From: Pseudomonadales bacterium
GTDB lineage: Bacteria; Pseudomonadota; Gammaproteobacteria; Pseudomonadales; UBA7239
Length of the DNA stretch: 64,000 bases
Direction of reading: 5' to 3'
Assembly (NCBI GenBank): GCA_046347205.1
Contig: JAXMGN010000001.1
Span: 181,226 to 245,225, forward strand
Position 1 is the stretch's first letter, and each line of letters starts with the position of its first letter. Below the pieces are notes generated by a model. That model was given only the letters and a program-made list of their open reading frames with translations. It ran no database searches and had not been told where the DNA came from. Below, piece by piece: positions 8,094-62,249 of this stretch. Position numbers and translations under genes: made by a program.

Positions 8094-8178
8094 GACGCTT
8101 TTCTCCCATCACTGCTAGACGCGTCTCTGCAAGACACAGAGCCTTCGAAGTTAAAAAGACCAGAAAAAGTCGGGCGGT

Positions 8179-8206
8179 ATTATGCCAGACTGATCGCTTA
8201 AGGCAA
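8179..8206 (-). promoter_or_regulatory. Putative sigma70 promoter of petABC
   Basis: TTGCCT-N16-CATAAT on the minus strand, ~85 bp upstream of petA. Confidence 0.5.
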
Positions 8207-8246
8207 GAAAACATCGTTTGACGGAGAACAAACAAACACCCTGCCT

Positions 8247-8286
8247 AAAAACAAAAACGCCCGAACCACTAACGAGATTCGGGCGC
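8247..8286 (-). terminator. Intrinsic terminator after rpsI
   Basis: CGCCCGAA...TTCGGGCG stem followed by TTTTTGTTTTT. Confidence 0.75.
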
Positions 8287-8304
8287 AATAGCCACACAAA
8301 AATA

Positions 8305-8709
8305 TTAACGCTTGGAGTACTGAGGACGCTTACGCGCTTTGCGCAAGCCTACTTTCTTACGTTCTACTTCACGAGAATCACGTGTGACATAGCCCGCTTC
8401 ACGCAGCGCACCGCGCAAGCTCTCGTCGTATTCCATCAATGCGCGCGTAATGCCGTGGCGAATCGCGCCGGCTTGACCAAAGCTGCCGCCACCTGCAACA
8501 GTGATTTTCAGATCCAGCTTTTGATCCAGACCCGTCAACACCAGAGGTTGACGCACGATCATGCGCGCCACTTCGCGGCCAAAATAGTTTTCCAACGTGC
8601 GGTCGTTGATGACGATATTGCCGCTGCCCGCTTTGATAAAAACACGCGCTGTTGCGGTCTTACGACGACCGGTTCCGTAGTTTTGTTTTACTGCCTGCTG
8701 CACTGCCAT
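8305..8709 (-). CDS. rpsI: 30S ribosomal protein S9
   Basis: [13 protein letters not shown]...[14 protein letters not shown]...RKRPQYSKR. Confidence 0.98.
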
Positions 8710-8718
8710 AAACGCCTC

Positions 8719-9147
8719 TTACAGTGAAAGTGTTTGTGGCTGCTGCGCACCGTGTGGGTGCTCAGTGCCAGCGTAAACTTTGAGTTTTTTGAACATTGCG
8801 CGACCCAGTGGTCCGCGCGGCAACATACCTTTCACCGCCAGTTCAATGGCACGCTCAGGCGCACGGTCGATCAGCTTTTCAAAAGTGATCTCTTTCAAAC
8901 CGCCAGGGAAGTTGCTGTGGCTGTAGTACACCTTGTCTTTGCTTTTAGCACCGGTCACACGCACTTTTTCTGCGTTAACCACAACAATGTAATCACCCGT
9001 ATCGCAGTGCGGTGTGAACTCAGGCTTGTGCTTACCGCGCAAGCGACGTGCTAGCTCCGCCGCCAAGCGGCCGAGAACCAAATTGTTGGCATCCACTACA
9101 TACCAATCGTGTTGTGCTGTCTGCGCATTGGCGCTGATCGTCTTCAT
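8719..9147 (-). CDS. rplM: 50S ribosomal protein L13
   Basis: WYVVDA...LGRLA...[14 protein letters not shown]...KGMLP. Confidence 0.98.
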
Positions 9148-9162
9148 TTCTCTACCGCTCGG

Positions 9163-10095
9163 TCAGGGGCTGGAATTGGGTGGCGAATTGTAGTGAGCAG
9201 CCTCCCTGTTTTCAAGCACTAAATCAGTATTTTCTGCCACCCAATACCAACACTGGGTGTTAAATGCTTGCTGCCCAAAGTCTCCCTCACGCCGCGCTCG
9301 CCCTTCCTTGTCTAGCTTCAACAAATGTGCCCACAAGGATATTTCCGCCAACCAATGCAGGCTGGCATCCACATCGTCATACACTGCTGGCGTGATCTCA
9401 CCTATCGAGCCCTTTCCCAACGCGCGCAATACGGCAATCACCTTCTGCTCACGCCGCAACCTGTGTGCAATCAAACCGTCGATCACCTGCAAAGGCTCAC
9501 GCATCACATCGCCGTGCCCTGGCAACAGGCTGCGCACCGGATACTGTTTCAGCAATGCCAAAGACTGCAGATAATCCGCCATGTCGCCACCCGGCGGCAC
9601 AATCACCACCGTGGATCCTTCCATGATGTGATCGCCAGTAAACAGCGCTCCTTCTTCTCTTAGTAAGTAGCAAAAGTGATTGGCGGCATGTCCGGGTGTG
9701 GCAATAGCCTCTAGGGTGAATGCTGTTCCCTGTATGAGATCGCCGTGCTGTAGGTTGCGCTCAACGCTAAAGCTCGCATCCTGATGCTCATCCTGCGGCA
9801 ACACTGCGCCTATCAACTTCGCGCCCGTTGTCTCTGCCAATAATTTGGCCGCTGGTGAATGGTCTGGATGCGTGTGGGTAACAACAATCCAATGCACAGT
9901 GGCTGCACCCACTGCCGCCAAAATTGCCTCGATATGCACAGGATCGGCAGGGCCCGGATCCAAAATCGCCAGCTCATCCGTGCCGATCAGATAGCAATTG
10001 GTACCGGCACCCGTCATGGTGCTCGGGTTGTTGGCTGTCAGCCGCCGCACCAGTGGCGACAACCGCACCCATTCACCAGACCTGACCTCAGCCAT
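9163..10095 (-). CDS. MBL-fold metallo-hydrolase (LACTB2-like, with C-terminal winged helix)
   Basis: NPSTMTGAGTNCY, HTHPDH, TPGHAANH, FTGDH, LLPGHG. Confidence 0.88.
   Translation of the reverse strand: MAEVRSGEWVRLSPLVRRLTANNPSTMTGAGTNCYLIGTDELAILDPGPADPVHIEAILAAVGAATVHWIVVTHTHPDHSPAAKLLAETTGAKLIGAVLPQDEHQDASFSVERNLQHGDLIQGTAFTLEAIATPGHAANHFCYLLREEGALFTGDHIMEGSTVVIVPPGGDMADYLQSLALLKQYPVRSLLPGHGDVMREPLQVIDGLIAHRLRREQKVIAVLRALGKGSIGEITPAVYDDVDASLHWLAEISLWAHLLKLDKEGRARREGDFGQQAFNTQCWYWVAENTDLVLENREAAHYNSPPNSSP
9187..9215 (-). promoter_or_regulatory. Sigma70 promoter of rplM-rpsI, inside the upstream CDS
   Basis: TTGAAA-N17-TACAAT followed by a GC-rich discriminator (TCGCCACCC). Confidence 0.65.
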
Positions 10096-10098
10096 GCG

Positions 10099-11286
10099 TT
10101 AAACCAGCGGCAACTCCACCACAGGGCTCAAATCTTCATCGTAGTTGACGCTGGCAAACCCGAAGCCAAACAATTTGAGAAACTCGTCTTTGTAGCCTTG
10201 GAAATCCGTCAGTTGATACAGATTCTCGGTGGTCACCACCGGCCACAATGCTGCAACGGCATCCTGTACTTCCGGGCGCAACTCTTTGTCGTCCACGCGC
10301 AAACGTCCCTCAGCATCTAACTGGCGCGTAGCGTTGAACAATTCATCATGAAACAAACGATAAATCTGTTCGATACAACCCTCATGGCCGCCTTTCTCTT
10401 TCATCACTTTGTACAACAGAGATAAATACAGCGGCATGATGGGAATCGCCGCGCTCGCCTGCGTCACCAGTGCTTTTAAGACCGATACATACGATTTGCC
10501 GTGGATAGCCGACAGCTTTTCATCGACCACCACTCGCGTGCGATCTAAATCTTTTTTCGCTGCGCCAATCGTGCCATTCCAATAAATATCCCACGTCAGC
10601 TTTTCACCTAAGTATGTGTAAGCCGTGGTCTGCGCGCCTTCCGCTAACACATCGGCGGCAAGTAGTGCTTCTATCCACATCTGCCAATCTTCGCCGCCCA
10701 TCACCGCTACGGTGTTGGCAATTTCTTCTTCGCTGGCCGCTGGCAGTGTTACTTCTTCCACAATTTGTTTGTCGGTATTAACACCGCGCTGCGTCACTGC
10801 CTGACCAATCGGCTTCAACACCGAGCCGTGTACCACACCTGTTTTCGGGTGCTGACGGCGCGGTGATGCCAAGCTGTAAATCACCAAATCCACCTTGCCC
10901 ATATCGGCTTTGATGGTATCAATCGTTTTTTGTTTGATTTCATCGGAAAACGCATCGCCATTGATGTGCTTCGCGTATAAACCCGCTTGCGTGGCCGCTT
11001 GATGAAAAGCGGCGGAGTTATACCAACCCGCTGTGCCTGTACGTTTTTCGTCCGGCTCTTTTTCAAAAAAGATACCCAAAGTTTTTGCGCCGCAAGCAAA
11101 CGCCGCTGTAATGCGCGAGGCCAAACCGTAGCCAGTTGACGCGCCGATCACCAAAACATTTTTAGGCCCACCAGTCATCGCTCCCTGCTGACGCACATAG
11201 TCAATTTGCTGCTGCACGTTGGCAGCGCAACCTTTCGGATGTGCATTGGTGCAGATGAAGCCGCGAACTTTGGGGTGAATAATCAT
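10099..11286 (-). CDS. fabV: Enoyl-ACP/trans-2-enoyl-CoA reductase FabV
   Basis: [54 protein letters not shown]. Confidence 0.95.
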
Positions 11287-51786: not shown

Positions 51787-51867
51787 CGTGCAGACCGTGT
51801 CAAAACTAGCAGTCTGCACAGGTAGCAGAGACAATGCCCGCATTGAAAAATGCGGGCATTGTTATTT

Positions 51868-53289
51868 ATGGCTTACATCAAAGGAGAAGCAGTCACGCAA
51901 GGCAGTTTGTTTCCTGTCTCGCTCGACGACCTGATTCCCGCCGATCATCCGGTGCGCGTCATTGCCGCTTATGTCGATAGTCTTGCGCTGGATGCCTTGG
52001 GTTTTTCTAAAGCGGTAACCAAAGCCACAGGGCGACCACCGTACGATCCCGCCGATATGCTGAAGTTGTATGTGTATGGCTATCTGCACCGCGTGCGCTC
52101 ATCGCGCCGACTGGAAGCTGAGTGCCAACGCAACGTGGAAGTGATGTGGCTACTGAGCCGTCTGACACCGGATTTCAAAACCATTGCCGAATTCCGGCGT
52201 TTGAACGGCAAAGCGTTTACAGCCGTGTGCCGCAGCTTTGTGCAGTTTTGTCGGCACGCCGGGCTGATTGCCGGTGAGTTAATCGCCATTGATGGCAGCA
52301 AATTTCAAGCGGCCTCTTCGCGCAAGCAATACACGAGCGCAGCGCGCTTGGCGCAACAGCAAGTGGTGTTGGACAAACAAATTGCCAGCTATCTCACCCA
52401 ATTGGATCACAGTGACAAAGCAGAGGCCGATACGGTTGTTGATCGTTCTGTCGTGCGCGCTGCCTTGCAACAACTGCAAGCCAAACAGGAGGCGGTGACA
52501 GAGCAACACGCGTTTTTGCAGCAGCACGGTTTGACGCAATACATCCATACCGAACCCGATGCGCGCATGATGCGCCATGCCCACGGCAAAATGACGGCCT
52601 ACAATGTGCAAACAGCCGTCGATACACAACACGGCTTGGTGGTGCATCACGATGTCACGCAAGACACCTGTGACAGTCGCCAACTATTGTCCGTGGCGCA
52701 AGCCACGAAAGTGGTTTTGCAGCAGGATGCTCTCACCGTCACGGCGGATGCCGGTTATTCCAACGGCGAGCAATTCCAAGCCTGCGACGATCAGCAGATT
52801 GAAGCCTTTGTGCCACCGCATCGCGCGGTCAACAACCAATCGCAACAGCAACATTTTCAAAAAGAAGCATTCACCTATTGCGCCGATAGCGACAGTTGGC
52901 GCTGCCCCAATCAGCGCACGCTGACGCGTAAGCAAATGAACAAGGGCTCGGTGATTTATGCCGCGAGTGCCAGCGACTGCTCCCGTTGTCCGCTCAAAGC
53001 GCAGTGCACCAGTGCCGCACAGCGCTTTATCAGCCGCCATGCGCACGAAGCTGCTTTTGATCGCATGACAACACGCTTGCAAGCGCGACCAGACATGATG
53101 CGCTGGCGCAGACAGACGGTGGAGCACCCGTTTGGCAACATCAAGCAGTGGATCATGGGCAACGGTCGCTTTTTGTTGTGGGGCTTGCGTGGTGCCAGCA
53201 CCGAAATGGCGTTGGCCGTCACTGCTTACAACTTAAAAAGAGCGATAAATATTCTTGGAGTAACCCGTATGATGGCTTTACTTGCGTAA
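51868..53289 (+). CDS. IS1182-family DDE transposase
   Basis: LDDLIPADHPVR, GRPPYDP, RSSRRLE, PDFKTIAEFR, AIDGSKF, ADAGY, RRQTVEHPFG; reading frame intact. Confidence 0.92.
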   Translation: MAYIKGEAVTQGSLFPVSLDDLIPADHPVRVIAAYVDSLALDALGFSKAVTKATGRPPYDPADMLKLYVYGYLHRVRSSRRLEAECQRNVEVMWLLSRLTPDFKTIAEFRRLNGKAFTAVCRSFVQFCRHAGLIAGELIAIDGSKFQAASSRKQYTSAARLAQQQVVLDKQIASYLTQLDHSDKAEADTVVDRSVVRAALQQLQAKQEAVTEQHAFLQQHGLTQYIHTEPDARMMRHAHGKMTAYNVQTAVDTQHGLVVHHDVTQDTCDSRQLLSVAQATKVVLQQDALTVTADAGYSNGEQFQACDDQQIEAFVPPHRAVNNQSQQQHFQKEAFTYCADSDSWRCPNQRTLTRKQMNKGSVIYAASASDCSRCPLKAQCTSAAQRFISRHAHEAAFDRMTTRLQARPDMMRWRRQTVEHPFGNIKQWIMGNGRFLLWGLRGASTEMALAVTAYNLKRAINILGVTRMMALLA

Positions 53290-53371: not shown

Positions 53372-53407
53372 AGTCAGCCGCTAGATCGTGAGTTTTGACA
53401 CGATCTG

Positions 53408-54076
53408 CGACCAATCTTTTCTTTCGTAGGCCAAAGTGGCTCGCAACCCGTAGCCGTGGTTCTGATGGTTTTCCTGATTATTTAGCCCTGGTGCCACATC
53501 AGAAAGATCTGACTGTTGTTGCCCGCGCAGGAAATAATCGTATTCAACACTACTAGAAATGCGAGACTCGCTATCAACTTGAAAGCGATGCGTGAGACCC
53601 ACTGGTAAATACCAGTACTCACTCTCACGCCTATAACCACCTCGTCCCACTTCACCTAACTCGTTGACCAAATTTCTGTAACCAATGCCGATGTAGGGCG
53701 AAAGCAAATAACCATCCAAGGAAAAATCTTTGCCACCAATAGCTCTTACTTCCCAAAGTTTGTCTGGTATGCCGCCGTGAGTGCCTGTGCCTTTGTAATT
53801 CACTTCGCTATAGGAATAGCGAATATCGCCGTTGACATACCAATCATTGCCGAACGCCCAAGTAGCTGCGCCGGTCAGCCCGAGTCGGTTGCCTTTGGTG
53901 TGCATAAAAAAATGTCCATCCTTTTCTTCTTCATACAAGTATCTGGAGAGCTGCGCGCCAACCTCATAACCGCTGCTTGTGTTCAGGGAGATGGCATCAT
54001 CCGCGTGAGCAGGCAGCGTTGTACAAGCTAATACCATGCCACCCAAAAACAGTTTGAACGAGTTGGTTTTTTTCAT
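53408..54076 (-). pseudogene. 5' fragment of an outer-membrane beta-barrel gene disrupted by the IS
   Basis: Signal peptide and alternating aromatic beta-strands; native sequence ends ...ERKDWS and then runs into the IS end. Confidence 0.85.
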
Positions 54077-56350: not shown

Positions 56351-56716
56351 CTATCTATCACGCAAATGTAGCGACGCTGAATTGATGCAATAGCGCAAAC
56401 CCGTGGGTGCAGGACCATCGGGAAACACATGCCCCAAATGTGCCGCGCAAGCACTGCACACCACTTCGGTGCGCAGCATACCGTGCGCAGTATCGCGGTG
56501 TTCTGTTACCGCATTCGCGACCAACGGTTGCCAATAACTCGGCCAACCGCTGCCAGAATCGTATTTTGTTGTGCTGTCGAATAAGGGTTGCCCGCAACAC
56601 ACACAGCAATAAATACCATCGTCTTTGCAATCCCAATACTTGCCGGTGAAAGCACGCTCTGTACCTTTTTCGCGACAGATGTGGAATTGTTCAGGCGTTA
56701 ATTGCTCGTCGTTCAT
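56351..56716 (-). CDS. msrB: Methionine-R-sulfoxide reductase
   Basis: [37 protein letters not shown]. Confidence 0.97.
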
Positions 56717-59150
56717 GAAAAAATCTCCTGCCTAGCAAAGACCACAGCAACAACAGCAAAAAAATAAAACCTGCCATTATCGAGATATAAATACCGTAAC
56801 GCAGCGCAGGGGGATCGTAATAAAAACACACACGATGTTCACCCGCTGGCAACACAATGCCACGGAACGCTTCGTTCACGCGACCGATATACGCCGGCAC
56901 ACCGTCTACCGTTGCACGCCAATCAGGGTGCCAAGTATCAGACAACACCAAGATAGCAGGCTGCGTCACTGTCACCTTGGCAGTGACTTCCGTATTGCGA
57001 CGCACGAGCGGCTGCACATTACCCATAACGACCACAGATTCTGCCGAATTATCGACAACAGGAATTCCCAACTGCTCGGCCTGCGCTTTTAATGCCGTAT
57101 CCGCAGTAATGGCTACACGGTGCGGATCCAACTGACTCGCGGTAGACAAGGCACTCACCAAGGAAAGCGACGGCAGATAATTTTTATTTTCAAACACGAG
57201 GGCCGTGTTATCGCTGTACACCAGAGGATAGCCATCACGCTGCAAATTTTCTGCATACGCCACGTCAGCCGTTTTAGACACCACAATGTATTTAATGCTA
57301 TCGGCATCCAATGCTGCTGCATCTAAGGAAAATTCCTTGCGTGACGTTTTTTTGCGTTTCTTATTCGATGACCCATCCAATGCCAAAAAGAAAAACGTGT
57401 CATTGCCAAAATACTTTTCAAAGAAACTCTCATACCAAGACAGCAAACCTGCATTCATGGTTCCTGCTTGACGGATGCCGAACAGAGCACCGTATTCTGG
57501 ATACAGTACACCCTGCTGCCCTATATTAAGAATTCGGCCATCGCCAATATTTTTTTTCAGGAATTGCACAACGCTAGGTTTGGTATCTGCAATGCCATAA
57601 CGCATAGGCCTAACGGTGTTCATATAACTAAGCAACTCAGCAATCAAAGCCAGAGAAATAAACACCGACAAATACTTTGCATTCAATGTCTTTGATTTCG
57701 CCAACCACCACCACAGCACTGAAGAAATCCATAACACTATCGCTATTACTACATGCAGCATTTGGATGGAGGACGATGGCATTCCCAGCCTGCTATACAA
57801 ATAAATAAATCCCACCATCGGCAATAATAAAATGACACACACGGCCACTATAGGTAATTTTTCCTCTCGAATATTCTGTACGCCCAAGGCGACCAATACA
57901 GGCAACACTACTGCCGCCATACAACCCCAGTATTGATTGCCTATCGAATGTAGAACCGGCAGATGGTCCACAAACCCCATTGCACCAAACACTCTAGCAT
58001 ACGCAAATACCAACAACGCAATACCTACACAAGCAACCCAGTGTTGCACTATTTTATTTCTACCCAATGCACACACAGCCACTAAAAACGTCGTAATGCC
58101 GAGATAAGTAATGTGCGGTGATTTTTTCTCCAAGCCTGCATCAGGGTAGAGATCAACGCGTTGAATATGACCAAAAACATCCCAAAAATGTTGAGGTGAA
58201 AAGATCGATAAAAAGTTTTCAATGCCAATTGGTTTTGGCAGCATGCGCTTGTCAAAATCAGACACCATATCGGTAACAAAAAAAGAATCGATCACAGGAA
58301 CCCATAAAAACCCCAGCAGCGCAACCGCACACACAACAGCCAATACAATGTGTAGACAATAGATAGGAAATCCTTTAGTCCCTTGGCGAGCGCCACCAGC
58401 AAGACCCACATAAAAAGCTACACCCAGCACATGCACAGCCAGTAGCGTTAACATCAACGTTGTCATGATATTCGCCAACAGAATGACTGCGTGTGCGAAC
58501 ACGACAAACAACCATGAAGGCAAATCTCTCCGCTGACAAAACTGCAACAAGGCAAACAACACTATGGGAAACAAAAAATACGGCTGACCGATGCCGGTAT
58601 TCAAATTCGGCACAGCAAAACCATTTAAGAGATATGCCGCTGCCCCCACTAAGGCCGCACACCAGCTTGTGCGAAAAACATCCAGAAAAATGCACAGCAT
58701 GAAATAAAAACCCATGCAGTACAGTGCAAGCAAACCAAAATCAAAGCTGACTGGCGATGCATCAAACAGCCATGTAGTCATCAATGTATGTGGAGAAAAC
58801 TTGATGTCTATCAACGTCTCTGGCCCCAAGGTACCGGAGGCAGAATACGGATTCCACCACGGCGAATCGCCAGTGCGAAAATTGCGCGCCATAAAATAAT
58901 GCGCTGGCTCAAATTCATTCAGTGCGGAATACAAATCACCAAAACCATCAGATGGCAGTACATCGTGACCCCACACTGGCATCAATGCAGAACTCGCCTG
59001 CCATGCAGCGGGCTTATTAATGAATGGCAAAATATTGGAGGGCTGTAGCGTGCGCTGAAAAAAAACAATATCGGGAAAAATAATGCCGCACACCACCAAC
59101 ACTGCACAGGCGGCCATCCCTAGCTGTCTGCGCAAAGCTTTCACAGTCAA
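56691..59150 (-). CDS. YfhO-like multi-TM membrane protein (putative GT-C glycosyltransferase)
   Basis: [10 protein letters not shown] periplasmic motif, ~12 TM segments, C-terminal [17 protein letters not shown]...[13 protein letters not shown]...Y.P. TTG start. Confidence 0.75.
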
Positions 59151-62100
59151 TTACAGTGCCGCTGCGCCGTTGATGACAGACACCGAGCCAGCACCTTTGA
59201 TGAGTTTGGGTTTACCTTGAGTGCCGCCTACCGCGCTGCTCATACGCGCTGCAATAATTAAATCGCCTTTTCCGTCGCCGTTGATGTCGCCACTCGCCAC
59301 CGCAGAGCCAAAATTATCTTTGGCTACGCTGCCGTCCATAGACCACTCCTCTACACCCGTGCCGCCGGCAAATAATTGCACAGACCCGGAACCCTTGCCT
59401 GAAGCAATGGTATTAGCATTAGGCGACCCCACTAACACCTCATCCTTGCCATCACCATTGATGTCTGACACCACCGCGATGGACGCCCCCATCAAACTCC
59501 CCGCCGTACCTGATCGAGCAAAACCAGGGGTGATCGTGGCGCTGCTGCCCGTGCCATACCATACCGATATAGCTCCGGCTTTTTTGTTGGCATACGGGGC
59601 ACCAACCACAAAATCCGGCTTACCATCGCCGTTGATATCCCCACCGCCAGCGACGCTAGCACCTAGGTGCCCCCCTGCCGTTGTACCTATAATCATTTGT
59701 GAGTGATAGCCGCCATTTTTGGGGGTCACGATGTACACCGCACCAGAGTCTTTACCACTGGCATCCGCTAGCGGCGCGCCAATCACCAAATCTCCAGAGT
59801 TATCGCCGGTAATATCACCAATACCCGCAACAGCTGCACCAAAGTTGTCGTTGATCGCTTCACCATAGTACGTAGATCGAGGCGAGCCACTCCAAGGTTC
59901 CAGCGCGTACACAGCTCCCGTATTCTTAGCAACTCCAGGGGCACCTACCGCAATCTCTCCATAACCATTTGCATTGATGTCCCCCAACCCCGTTACGGCA
60001 AAGCCCAAGCGATCATTGGCGCTATTACCAGAGGTGTCAAAAATAGGTGCAGGTAAGCCACTAGCGGTGGAGTCAAACAAATTGTACGCAGCCACGCGAC
60101 CATTCTTTTTCAAATACCATCCCGCGCTGAATGAATACGCATTACCTGGGGCTCCTACCACAAAATCAACTATGCCATCTTTATCCAAGTCGCCTGCATT
60201 GGCTACAGACCAACCATATAGCTGCCCCTTAGTGTCACCAATGTTGTACCAAAGAGCTTTATTGGTTTTTCCTGAAATAACAGCAACAAAACCCACATCG
60301 GTATAGCGCAAATGACCATAGCGGTAATCATAATAAGGCGCGCCAAACACTACATCGTCAAAACCATCACCATCAAAATCGCCCACAGCAACAGAGAATC
60401 CTGCTTGCGCTCCTTTTGCATCATCCTTGGCATAAACAGCACTTTCAGAAATCAAATTTAGCCAATCACCGTCCAAGGGTTTGGGGTCATATAAATCACT
60501 GACGCCGTCATGATCGGTATCTGCTGCCTGAGGATTCGTGCCAGCAAGAAATTCCTGCAAATTCGACAAACCATCGCCGTCCGCATCCGCAGCCGAATCG
60601 TTCACACCCACCGTTAAACCGTGTGCAGTTTCCCAGTTGTCGTCCATGTGATCGCCATCAGTATCCACAACTGGTGCAGGACAATTCACACCCACCATCT
60701 GGAATGCAGCATTCACTTCTGTCGTGTTGTAAGACAAATCAGCTGCCGCGCTGATCACACCACAGGCTGCATCAACATAATTAGATAACGGAGACCAATA
60801 ATTTGCATTGGCAAAATAAAAAACCTTAAAAGCCTTATCAACGCTCCAACTAGGTGTATTGGCAAGTAGATAAAAGGCACGATTAAATACGCCGCTAGAA
60901 TTGTGCACATCAATTCCATCGTAATAGTCAGCAGCACTTCGAATAGATCGCTTGTCTTTGCGCGGGTCAGCAAAATAACGCAAGGCTTTGGTTTTACCCT
61001 TCATTACATCTGCGCCAACCAACCAATCGACCTTACCATTTGCATAGTATTCAGCTGCTTCTCCGGCAATATCTGAATAAGCCTCATTGATCCCACCGCT
61101 TTGGCCGTAATATTCCAAGCCAGAGTTTTGTTCTGTTGTTCCGTGAGAAGACTCGTGTGCTACGACATTTAGTGATGTCGATAATGGATAAAAATATTTA
61201 TCCCCATCACCAAAGTTAGTATAGGTTCCATCCCAAAAAGCATTTTCATACCCATAATCATAATGCACGCGCAGAATAAACATGCCACTCAAGGGTGTAG
61301 TGCCTACATAACTTTTGTACATCGCATTAGTCACCATGGCAAAGTTATGTGCATCATTCAAGGGCGCGTAACCACCATTAATTGACTGAAACGTGTTACG
61401 CGGACAACCGTAGCTGTACGCAGTGGAATAGCTACCAATACCACCGCCTAAATTTACTGTTTTTACTTCCGATGTTTGCATGGTACAAGTGCCGCCAGAC
61501 TGCATGACATCCAAAAAAGGAACTCCCCCAGAACCGTACTCAATCAAACCGCTCCTCTCATTCCCTCCAGGGCCAGTGCCAATTGCTGCATGAGCCATAC
61601 CATTCCATGTTTTAAAAATATGCCCATCATCTGCATCTAAAATAAAATAAGGACGCACAGGCTCAAACCCTGCAGCCTCGACCACGTAACTAATGTACCA
61701 GGCATCGTGCGCTCTCTGCTGCGCATCCAAATAAATAACTAATTTGATTTTTTCATTGCGAAACTCCGGTGTAACACCATCACTCACCTTAAGATAGCGA
61801 CTGATATTTTTTTTCGCTTTTACCAGCGCCGCTTGACTGGAAAGTTGCTGCACAGCGGCATCATCATCAGAAACATCGTTCTCAATACCGTCCACGGCCA
61901 CACCGGTCAGTGACTGTGTTTTGCCCTGTGCATCGCTGTGCACAATCACTTGCTCGCCATACACAGGAATGCCGTGAAATTTTTGCTCAAAGCGTGTATG
62001 CGTTTTCCCTGATGGATCGCTGCTTTTGCGCAGCACTTGAAAACTGTTGCGCGGATCCAACGCCAATGCTTGCTGTAAAGCTGGTACTGCCACGCCCGCC

Positions 62101-62249
62101 AGTGACTGCACCACAGAGGCATCCACCCCCTGCAAATTCACACGCTCTGCTGCAACAGTATGCTGACTCAACACTACTGCTGCGCAAGAGAACACACCCG
62201 CCAACACTCCAAACTGTTTGTTGCTTTTTGTATCCATGACACTCTCCAT
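59151..62249 (-). CDS. Secreted M4 (thermolysin/elastase-like) metalloprotease with TSP3-like and seven FG-GAP repeats
   Basis: Signal peptide and FTP/PepSY propeptide; NAFWDG, HESSH, GGINEAYSD, DVHNSSG; DxDxD repeats; 7 GDxxxDGxxDxxxGAP-like repeats. Confidence 0.88.
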   Translation of the reverse strand: MESVMDTKSNKQFGVLAGVFSCAAVVLSQHTVAAERVNLQGVDASVVQSLAGVAVPALQQALALDPRNSFQVLRKSSDPSGKTHTRFEQKFHGIPVYGEQVIVHSDAQGKTQSLTGVAVDGIENDVSDDDAAVQQLSSQAALVKAKKNISRYLKVSDGVTPEFRNEKIKLVIYLDAQQRAHDAWYISYVVEAAGFEPVRPYFILDADDGHIFKTWNGMAHAAIGTGPGGNERSGLIEYGSGGVPFLDVMQSGGTCTMQTSEVKTVNLGGGIGSYSTAYSYGCPRNTFQSINGGYAPLNDAHNFAMVTNAMYKSYVGTTPLSGMFILRVHYDYGYENAFWDGTYTNFGDGDKYFYPLSTSLNVVAHESSHGTTEQNSGLEYYGQSGGINEAYSDIAGEAAEYYANGKVDWLVGADVMKGKTKALRYFADPRKDKRSIRSAADYYDGIDVHNSSGVFNRAFYLLANTPSWSVDKAFKVFYFANANYWSPLSNYVDAACGVISAAADLSYNTTEVNAAFQMVGVNCPAPVVDTDGDHMDDNWETAHGLTVGVNDSAADADGDGLSNLQEFLAGTNPQAADTDHDGVSDLYDPKPLDGDWLNLISESAVYAKDDAKGAQAGFSVAVGDFDGDGFDDVVFGAPYYDYRYGHLRYTDVGFVAVISGKTNKALWYNIGDTKGQLYGWSVANAGDLDKDGIVDFVVGAPGNAYSFSAGWYLKKNGRVAAYNLFDSTASGLPAPIFDTSGNSANDRLGFAVTGLGDINANGYGEIAVGAPGVAKNTGAVYALEPWSGSPRSTYYGEAINDNFGAAVAGIGDITGDNSGDLVIGAPLADASGKDSGAVYIVTPKNGGYHSQMIIGTTAGGHLGASVAGGGDINGDGKPDFVVGAPYANKKAGAISVWYGTGSSATITPGFARSGTAGSLMGASIAVVSDINGDGKDEVLVGSPNANTIASGKGSGSVQLFAGGTGVEEWSMDGSVAKDNFGSAVASGDINGDGKGDLIIAARMSSAVGGTQGKPKLIKGAGSVSVINGAAAL

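What the first reader, a model, noticed from the sequence alone, without database searches (positions are those of the whole stretch)
59151..62249. Elastase-like protease fused to a complete integrin-alpha-like 7-blade propeller
Seen: a preproprotease with intact M4 residues (HESSH, the third-ligand E in NEAYSD, the catalytic H in DVHNSSG), then Asp-rich Ca-binding DxDxD repeats, then exactly seven FG-GAP repeats ending the protein. Known: M4 enzymes usually carry PPC, PKD or P-domains. Inference: a Ca-dependent adhesin/targeting propeller directs proteolysis at a surface, host or prey.
Basis: partly seen in the sequence, partly recalled or inferred. Interest (0 to 1): 0.65.

Follow-up and report, generated by a model that had tools for sequence, protein, structure and literature searches.

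The report
Secreted protease with shared propeller tail
An uncultured gammaproteobacterium encodes an intact elastase-type zinc protease carrying a calcium-binding seven-blade propeller, and about ten other exported proteins in the same genome carry the same tail, so the propeller looks like a lineage-specific address label and not a one-off fusion.

Summary
ORF 59151-62249 (-) encodes a 1032-aa pre-pro M4 protease. It aligns end to end with LasB pro-elastase, and all catalytic residues are invariant. Three TSP3-type Asp repeats follow, then exactly seven FG-GAP blades. The model matches integrin-alpha heads (TM about 0.7).

The M4-plus-propeller combination is rare: about 5-6 clusters among 1.84 billion representatives, all in one family of uncultured Pseudomonadales/Cellvibrionales. 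I found no paper on it.

Three results change the reading:
- **Shared tail.** This 2.3-Mb genome has about ten exported proteins with a homologous TSP3 + propeller tail on different heads: a purple acid phosphatase, delta-60 propellers and unknown heads.
- **Relatives are membrane-anchored.** The nearest M4-TSP3 proteases mostly end in GlyGly-CTERM-like membrane sorting signals. The propeller type never does, and this genome has no rhombosortase.
- **Operon partner.** Within the genus the protease is followed, 0-33 nt downstream, by a single-copy YfhO-family GT-C glycosyltransferase. Both genes are far more diverged than their flanks.

Best reading: a type II-secreted protease held on a surface or matrix by a lectin-like Ca2+ propeller. 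Binding, retention of the tail and the ligand are untested. This is a new variant of a known kind, of moderate interest.

The parts
59151..62249 (-). Whole gene: 1032-aa pre-pro M4 metalloprotease with a TSP3 stalk and a 7-blade propeller (stop codon 59151-59153). The database copy starts at Met5, position 62237.
62148..62249 (-). Predicted Sec signal peptide, residues 1-34, with cleavage after VAA|ER. This is read from the sequence; no predictor was run.
   Evidence: n/h/c layout visible; A33/A34 invariant or nearly so in orthologues
61587..62147 (-). Propeptide, residues 35-221 (FTP motif 69-116). The predicted autocleavage context ...GMAHA|AIGTGPGGN aligns with the LasB pro/mature junction.
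60675..61586 (-). M4 catalytic domain, residues 222-525. HESSH at 61143-61157, NEAYSD at 61071-61088, DVHNSSG at 60891-60911. Two LasB-type disulfide pairs. The domain ends at the same Cys-Pro as LasB.
60435..60674 (-). Acidic stalk, residues 526-605 (pI 4.05). It holds three bacterial TSP3-type Ca2+-binding repeats and the conserved DGDWL segment that probably supplies the closing strand of blade 7.
59154..60434 (-). Seven-blade FG-GAP (integrin-alpha-type) beta-propeller, residues 606-1032. Six canonical Ca2+ loops and one variant. Blades 2-4 are the most variable part of the protein.
56691..59150 (-). Operon partner: a YfhO-family GT-C glycosyltransferase-like membrane protein. Start is TTG at 59150 or ATG at 59117. 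About 11 TM segments, a periplasmic domain and a last TM. Single copy in the genome.

Best explanation
The gene encodes an exported zymogen of a LasB/vibriolysin-type M4 zinc endopeptidase.

Inferred steps:
1. A Sec signal peptide takes it to the periplasm. There the FTP-type propeptide acts as folding helper and inhibitor, and is cut off at about His-Ala|Ala-Ile (residue about 221).
2. The genome's type II secretion system then exports it, as for LasB.

Shown: the usual PPC, PKD or P-domain tail is replaced by a Ca2+-stiffened TSP3 stalk and a seven-blade integrin-alpha-type propeller with six to seven Ca2+ loops. Homologous tails are carried by about ten other exported proteins of the same genome and by all genomes of the family.

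Inferred function: the tail is a Ca2+-dependent, lectin-like binding module. It keeps the enzyme attached to a surface, either the cell's own glycan coat or matrix, or particulate substrate, so that it does not diffuse away. In this it would replace the covalent GlyGly-CTERM anchoring used by the nearest M4-TSP3 relatives.

Within the genus the protease is very probably co-transcribed with a GT-C (YfhO-family) glycosyltransferase, whose link to the tail is unknown. Both genes are highly polymorphic.
For: Active protease:
- Pfam M4 N- and C-domains are far above cut-off.
- Full-length alignment to LasB pro-elastase, E 2e-116, with all zinc and catalytic residues and both disulfides conserved.

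Export:
- Signal-peptide layout is visible in the sequence.
- A GspD secretin scores above cut-off in the genome (491 bits against 351).

Folded 7-blade Ca2+ propeller:
- Shown: The tail is functional and not decaying:
- dN/dS is about 0.16 in the propeller, and the structural Gly/Asp positions are invariant.

The tail is a shared label:
- Nine further ORFs in G000 have a TSP3 + FG-GAP C-terminal tail that is 30-64% identical.
- Their heads are a purple acid phosphatase, three delta-60/DUF5122 propellers, a weak LGF-metalloprotease match, a 21-repeat TSP3 protein, unknown heads, and one protein with no head at all.
- The same layout occurs in G011.
- All 16 genomes of the family have 1-22 tail matches each (14 of them 8-22), against 0 of 45 genomes from other families of the order.

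Retention logic:
- Of 82 M4 + TSP3-motif proteins longer than 900 aa, about 65 are not propeller-type.
- By a strict rule, 38 of these end in a hydrophobic-plus-basic sorting signal, 26 of them preceded by GG, and several more do so by eye.
- None of the about 17 propeller-type proteins does.
- G000 has no rhombosortase.

Lectin precedent:
- The integrin-like propeller of the fungal PVL lectin binds sugars and Ca2+, and the VCBS/FG-GAP supercluster is mostly made of secreted binding proteins (PMC8023676).
Against: - No binding, localisation or processing data exist, and no ligand is known.
- M4 enzymes with PPC tails often lose the tail during maturation (my own knowledge of vibriolysins). The same could happen here.
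- The tail diverges fast: 65% identity to the closest orthologue, against 90% for the catalytic domain. That is unexpected if it docks to a conserved self structure.
- The protease's stalk is of the TSP3_bac type, unlike the TSP_3-type stalks of the paralogues. Its tail is also the most divergent of the set (30-36%), so it may not share their ligand.
- No candidate receptor protein was found.
- The M4 part of the AlphaFold2 model is poor (pTM 0.52), so nothing can be said about how the domains pack.
Confidence: 0.6

Rival explanations
1. The propeller is a transient maturation or secretion helper. It would be cut off after export, as PPC domains of vibriolysins are, leaving a free 33-kDa elastase-like enzyme.
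For: The catalytic domain ends exactly where LasB ends. C-terminal domains of related M4 enzymes are PPC or P-domains, which are known to be removed in several vibriolysins (my own knowledge). The junction residues 524-529 and 597-604 have pLDDT below 50.
Against: The stalk is strongly conserved, with invariant Asp/Trp/Glu positions, unlike a disposable linker. One paralogue consists only of signal peptide + TSP3 + propeller (L019), so the tail has a function of its own. Non-enzymatic heads carry it too. Purifying selection acts on 427 residues.
Confidence: 0.2
2. This is the first reader's idea: the propeller is an adhesin that aims the protease at a host or prey cell surface, for virulence or predation.
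For: Integrin-type propellers mediate cell adhesion. The propeller is the fastest-evolving part, and the alleles are old, as expected for molecules in an arms race.
Against: The same tail is on a phosphatase and on many non-protease proteins. I saw no host-interaction or predation machinery, though I did not search for it systematically. The lineage consists of environmental MAGs, and an earlier unchecked note says activated sludge.
Confidence: 0.1
3. The propeller sits over the active site and gates substrate access, as in prolyl oligopeptidases. In this reading it regulates the enzyme and does not localise it.
For: Seven-blade propellers gate access in the S9 peptidases (my own knowledge).
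Against: An 80-residue Ca2+-binding stalk separates the domains. The same tail is on non-enzymes. There is no confident interdomain packing (pTM 0.52).
Confidence: 0.03

Closest known systems
Pseudolysin (LasB elastase) of Pseudomonas aeruginosa, MEROPS family M4 (PDB 1EZM; pro-elastase 8CR3, 9GM4)
   Same: The pre-pro organisation, zinc ligands, catalytic His, two disulfides and C-terminal end of the catalytic domain all align (E 2e-116). A type II secretion system is present.
   Different: LasB stops where this protein's catalytic domain stops. Here 507 more residues follow: the TSP3 stalk and the propeller.
Vibriolysin-type M4 proteases with PPC, P-domain or PKD tails (for example MCP-02, PDB 3NQX/3NQY)
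   Same: The catalytic domain is 56% identical to MCP-02 in the Foldseek alignment (rank 49). Both are modular, with a C-terminal non-catalytic domain.
   Different: No PPC, PKD or P-domain is present. The tail is an FG-GAP propeller.
Uncharacterised M4 + bacterial-TSP3 + long-tail proteases of marine Gammaproteobacteria (Vibrio penaeicida, Aestuariibacter halophilus, Ketobacter), many with GlyGly-CTERM-like ends
   Same: They are the nearest M4 heads (40-46% identity) and have the same TSP3_bac repeats directly after the catalytic domain.
   Different: Their tails are other modules, and most end in a membrane sorting signal. The propeller type has none, and the genome has no rhombosortase.
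Integrin alpha head propeller and the fungal PVL lectin (VCBS/FG-GAP supercluster, PMC8023676, PMC3192720)
   Same: Seven FG-GAP blades, DxDxDG Ca2+ loops, and fold TM 0.68-0.71 to integrin heads.
   Different: There are no thigh/calf legs, no membrane anchor and no beta-subunit partner. Six to seven blades carry Ca2+ loops, against the three to four I recall for integrins. The propeller is fused to an enzyme.
Other enzyme + FG-GAP fusions: the trypsin-(FG-GAP) protein of Streptomyces avermitilis listed in PMC2605481, and mammalian GPI-specific phospholipase D (my own knowledge)
   Same: A hydrolase followed by a C-terminal FG-GAP propeller.
   Different: They have different catalytic families and no TSP3 stalk. 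None is known to belong to a genome-wide set of proteins sharing the tail.
Pgf / PgtC2 systems of streptococci (YfhO-family GT-C enzymes encoded beside the secreted adhesins they glycosylate; PMC12041528)
   Same: A YfhO-family GT-C gene lies directly beside a gene for an exported protein.
   Different: The protease has no Ser/Thr-rich disordered region. The organism is Gram-negative. No glycosylation has been shown.

Membership tests
Peptidase family M4 (thermolysin/pseudolysin) | HExxH plus a third zinc ligand Glu in NExxSD, 20 residues downstream | tested here: met
   H365-E-S-S-H369 and E389 are invariant in 14 orthologues and align to LasB.
Peptidase family M4 (thermolysin/pseudolysin) | Catalytic His of the C-terminal helical domain, and both Pfam domains above the gathering score | tested here: met
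   H449 is invariant. PF01447 scores 85.5 bits against 22.4; PF02868 scores 130.7 against 24.4.
Peptidase family M4 (thermolysin/pseudolysin) | N-terminal FTP/PepSY propeptide | tested here: met
   PF07504 scores 55.7 bits against 21. The alignment to pro-elastase starts at residue 28. PepSY itself is not above threshold.
Peptidase family M4 (thermolysin/pseudolysin) | Zinc-dependent endopeptidase activity | not testable with these tools
   This needs an enzyme assay.
Legionella ProA/Msp equivalog (NF045902) | Score above the equivalog cut-off | tested here: not met
   381 bits against a cut-off of 900.
Integrin-alpha-type FG-GAP beta-propeller | Seven FG-GAP repeats that form a closed seven-blade propeller | tested here: met
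   Seven Pfam stretches. The model has pLDDT 85-94 with four strands per blade. TM is 0.68-0.71 to integrin heads.
Integrin-alpha-type FG-GAP beta-propeller | DxDxDG-type Ca2+ loops | tested here: met
   Six canonical loops and one variant. Ca2+ binding itself was not tested.
Integrin alpha subunit (as a receptor) | Thigh/calf legs, a transmembrane helix and a beta-subunit partner | tested here: not met
   The protein ends after blade 7 and has no C-terminal hydrophobic segment.
GlyGly-CTERM / rhombosortase-anchored M4-TSP3 proteases | C-terminal GG + TM + basic sorting signal, and a rhombosortase in the genome | tested here: not met
   No such end in any propeller-type member. TIGR03902 gives 0 matches in G000.
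Lineage-specific 'head - TSP3 - FG-GAP propeller' exoprotein set (defined here) | Signal peptide, variable head, Asp-rich TSP3 repeats, and a homologous seven-blade propeller as the last domain | tested here: met
   The protease tail aligns over its whole length with nine paralogous tails at 30-36% identity. However, its stalk is TSP3_bac type and not TSP_3 type.
YfhO family / GT-C glycosyltransferases (partner gene) | Pfam PF09586 above cut-off, and a polytopic GT-C fold | tested here: met
   37 bits against 28.5, but only over the last 75 residues. The model has pTM 0.81, and its top 26 Foldseek hits (27 of the top 28) are GT-C enzymes (AftD, PglB, ArnT, STT3, Emb, ALG6); TM scores are modest, 0.2-0.46.

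The most novel reading that the evidence does not exclude
The family may use a non-covalent display system for exported proteins. A lineage-specific, lectin-like Ca2+ propeller (the 'tag') would dock a dozen different exoproteins (protease, phosphatase, binding proteins) onto a glycan of the cell's own envelope or matrix. This would work much as dockerins or SLH domains do, but with an integrin-type propeller. At the protease locus the tag would be paired with the GT-C enzyme that makes or decorates that glycan. Both would diversify under phage or grazer pressure, which would explain the deep allelic divergence.
Probability: 0.15. Interest if true: 0.7.

Novelty: new variant of a known kind. 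Interest (0 to 1): 0.45.

Why it matters
How free-living Gram-negative bacteria stop their costly exoenzymes from diffusing away is only partly understood. The known answers are lipoprotein anchors, GlyGly-CTERM/rhombosortase and T9SS C-terminal domains.

Here one lineage has put the same integrin-type Ca2+ propeller on about ten different exported proteins. Its closest protease relatives use a membrane sorting signal instead. If the propeller proves to be a retention or docking module, three things follow:
- It would be a new way of keeping enzymes at the cell or particle surface.
- It would assign a concrete function to the many bacterial 'integrin-like' propellers.
- It would offer a Ca2+-switchable affinity tag.

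The pairing with a hypervariable GT-C glycosyltransferase gives a direct, testable lead to the ligand.

Tried and rejected

I therefore have no read-level, expression or habitat evidence. The habitat 'activated sludge' comes only from an earlier unchecked note.
- Promoter and terminator scans gave nothing above chance.

**Literature**
- Searches found no paper on M4 + FG-GAP, or on TSP3 + FG-GAP tails as sorting or anchoring modules.

**Ideas tested and dropped**
- A docking partner: I looked for an OmpA-type TSP3 outer-membrane protein. The only other TSP3 carriers are an RCC1-TSP3 secreted protein and a giant repeat protein.
- YfhO as a strain-specific insert: I first thought so because it is absent from L001. 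This was wrong. It is present in 6 of 7 genus-level loci.
- Strict allele-for-allele co-inheritance of propeller and GT-C: rejected. Contigs with the identical protease allele carry a GT-C allele that drops to 59-79% nucleotide identity from about position 58,900.
- The protease as an obvious Pgf/PgtC2-type substrate: it has no Ser/Thr-rich disordered segment.
- Face-specific conservation of the propeller: there is no clear signal. The outer D strands are simply the most variable.

**Limits**
- The M4 half of the AlphaFold2 model is poor because the alignment is shallow (14 sequences), so I did not interpret interdomain geometry.
- dS in the protease is saturated, so the dN/dS ratios are rough.
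Full report

Yes. The minus-strand ORF 59151-62249 encodes 1032 residues. Pfam finds the following:
- FTP at 69-116.
- Peptidase_M4 at 241-373.
- Peptidase_M4_C at 376-521.
- Seven FG-GAP stretches (E 4.5e-50).
- A sub-threshold bacterial TSP3 match at 555-574.

Against PDB sequences, residues 28-527 align with Pseudomonas pro-elastase (LasB) at E 2e-116. HESSH (365-369), E389 in NEAYSD, H449 in DVHNSSG and the four disulfide cysteines all lie on the LasB counterparts. All are invariant in 14 orthologues. The catalytic domain ends at the same Cys-Pro as LasB, so everything after about residue 527 is an addition.

The Asp-rich part is three TSP3-type units with invariant Asp positions. Six blades have canonical D-x-[DN]-x-[DN]-G-x-x-[DE] loops and blade 4 has a variant.

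An AlphaFold2 model built on 14 orthologues gives the propeller (about 610-1032) pLDDT 85-94. The M4 half is poorly modelled because the alignment is shallow. Foldseek puts integrin-alpha head propellers on top, with E 1e-18 and target TM 0.68-0.71 over about 455 columns.

**2. How rare is the architecture?**

- In the word-indexed search of 5.8 billion proteins, about 18 clusters at 90% identity combine M4 and FG-GAP. Almost all are metagenomic. The only name given is 'M4 family metallopeptidase [Pseudomonadales bacterium]'.
- An exhaustive HMMER pass over 1.84 billion representatives at 50% identity gave 5,454 hits at E<=1e-30. Only P0009 (this cluster), P0014, P0015, P0017 and P0151, plus P0021 with an extra domain, join the two modules.
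- The named genomes are uncultured Pseudomonadales and Cellvibrionales MAGs.
- Among 61 related genomes, the fusion occurs in 7 of 13 genomes of the genus (counting this genome) and in one sister genus, where it has several copies. It occurs in no other family of the order.
- I found no paper on this combination. One catalogue lists a trypsin-(FG-GAP) protein in Streptomyces (PMC2605481).

**3. The tail is not special to the protease.**

The window's own genome is 2.30 Mb in 4 contigs, 100% complete. It holds 58 FG-GAP matches in about ten large ORFs.

All have a signal-peptide-like N-terminus, TSP3 repeats and a C-terminal propeller that ends the protein. Their heads differ:
- A purple acid phosphatase/metallophosphoesterase (L021).
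- Three delta-60/DUF5122 propellers (L020, L022, L023).
- A weak NF038122 metalloprotease match (L018).
- A protein with 21 TSP3 repeats (L015).
- Heads of unknown type (L016, L017).
- A protein that is only stalk and propeller (L019).

The tails align over their whole length at 30-64% identity. The protease's tail is the most divergent, at 30-36%. The same layout is seen in a second genome, G011. All 16 genomes of the family have tail matches (1-22 each, 14 of them with 8-22), and none of the 45 genomes from other families does. The propeller is therefore a lineage-specific, head-independent C-terminal module.

One difference remains. The protease's stalk is of the bacterial TSP3 type (DxDxDGMxDxWE), as in other M4 proteases. 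The paralogues have TSP_3-type stalks.

**4. What do the nearest protease relatives have instead?**

Dozens of the best hits are M4 + TSP3_bac repeats + long other tails, 1000-3300 aa in length. Some come from cultured Vibrio, Aestuariibacter and Ketobacter.

- About 65 are not propeller-type. By a strict rule, 38 of these end in a hydrophobic segment followed by basic residues, and 26 of those are preceded by GG (GlyGly-CTERM-like). Several more do so by eye.
- None of the about 17 propeller-type proteins has such an end.
- The genome has no rhombosortase, but it does have a type II secretin above cut-off.

The class as a whole therefore looks cell-tethered. In this lineage the covalent anchor has been replaced by the propeller. 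That is an inference, not a demonstration.

**5. Neighbourhood and evolution.**

The order alaA - protease - YfhO-like - msrB - gpx - argG is kept in G000, G002, G011, G007 and two metagenome contigs. The gap between the protease stop and the next ORF is 0-33 nt. One genome (L001) lacks the YfhO-like gene. More distant M4-propeller genes are not next to one.

The partner gene has these properties:
- It is single-copy.
- It has about 11 TM segments, a periplasmic domain and a final TM.
- It passes the Pfam YfhO cut-off only through its C-terminus.
- Its AlphaFold2 model (pTM 0.81) hits almost only GT-C glycosyltransferases, at modest TM scores.
- Its close relatives number only about 15 clusters, which mirrors the distribution of the protease. 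More distant relatives are not beside M4 genes.

YfhO-family enzymes glycosylate teichoic acids (PMC5836110). In streptococci they glycosylate exported proteins encoded beside them (PMC12041528). However, the protease has no Ser/Thr-rich disordered stretch.

Both genes are much more diverged than their flanks:

| Comparison | Flanking genes | Protease | YfhO-like |
|---|---|---|---|
| L001 | 88-99% | 77% | absent |
| G002 | 86-97% | 71% | 68% |
| G007 | alaA 89% | 58% | 49% |

- Synonymous differences are saturated in the protease (pS 0.67-0.80), against 0.23-0.43 in the flanks.
- dN/dS stays low, at 0.09 overall and 0.16 in the propeller.
- Divergence peaks in blades 2-4, at 35-57% identity.

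This pattern suggests old alleles exchanged by recombination under continuing constraint. Codon-bias differences between housekeeping and secreted genes are a caveat.

In other samples the identical protease allele is joined to a different GT-C allele. Identity falls from about 100% to 59-79% at about position 58,900, and four further contigs break at 58,876.

**6. Mechanism.**

Shown:
- The protease has an intact active site.
- The propeller is folded, Ca2+-type and has seven blades.
- The tail is shared across many exported proteins.
- There is no membrane sorting signal.
- A type II secretion system is present.
- The protease is linked in an operon-like way to a GT-C enzyme.

Inferred:
- Export goes by Sec and then type II secretion.
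- The propeptide is removed near residue 221.
- The tail is retained.
- The tail works as a Ca2+-dependent binding or retention module.

The main rival is that the tail is cleaved off after export, as PPC domains often are. The host or prey adhesin idea and an active-site gating role are less likely, for the reasons given under the rivals.

**7. Verdict.**

This is a new variant of a known kind. The enzyme itself is ordinary, but its tail is unusual and uncharacterised. The more interesting point is the tail's use on a whole set of exported proteins and its pairing with a hypervariable GT-C gene. Interest is moderate, at 0.45.

Noticed in passing
window 56691-59150 (-): The YfhO-like GT-C gene is polymorphic in natural populations. 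Contigs that are about 100% identical through alaA and the protease fall to 59-79% nucleotide identity from about 58,900 onwards. Four other contigs end exactly at 58,876, which looks like an assembly break at a strain-variable point.
   Followed up: partly
G000 C1:82915-83142 (-), outside the window: A 75-codon open frame holds only the last blade of a propeller tail. It ends ...KKDAGKVTVINGSAL, like the protease's C-terminus, and is probably a remnant of another tail-bearing gene.
   Followed up: no
L023 = G000 C1:1153454-1156756 (+): A delta-60/DUF5122 + TSP3 + FG-GAP gene runs off the end of contig C1. The set of tail-bearing genes is therefore undercounted, and repeats of this kind may be what breaks the assembly.
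   Followed up: no
G000 C2:90474-96314 and L016 (C2:96230-99535): A 1946-codon repeat-rich open frame overlaps the start of the 1102-codon propeller-tailed frame and shares repeat sequence with it. This may be one giant gene of about 3000 aa, split by a frameshift or by a misassembly within the repeats.
   Followed up: no
G015 (the genome that holds L002), contig C94:5042-10178: The sister genus has several M4-propeller paralogues. One frame of about 1490 aa (P0015) contains two consecutive M4/propeller units.
   Followed up: no
L031 (G011) 8170-10642: In G011 the YfhO-like gene is split into frames of 593 and 259 codons, so it may be a pseudogene or carry a sequencing error.
   Followed up: no
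G000 C1:762993-764558 (+): A 521-aa secreted protein has RCC1-like repeats followed by about six TSP3 repeats and a Lys-rich end, with no propeller. It is the only other short TSP3 carrier in the genome.
   Followed up: partly
window 51850-53289 (+) and 53381-54076 (-): An IS-type DDE transposase (DUF772 + DDE_Tnp_1) lies next to a short ORF with a weak autotransporter beta-domain match, 5 kb from the protease locus.
   Followed up: no
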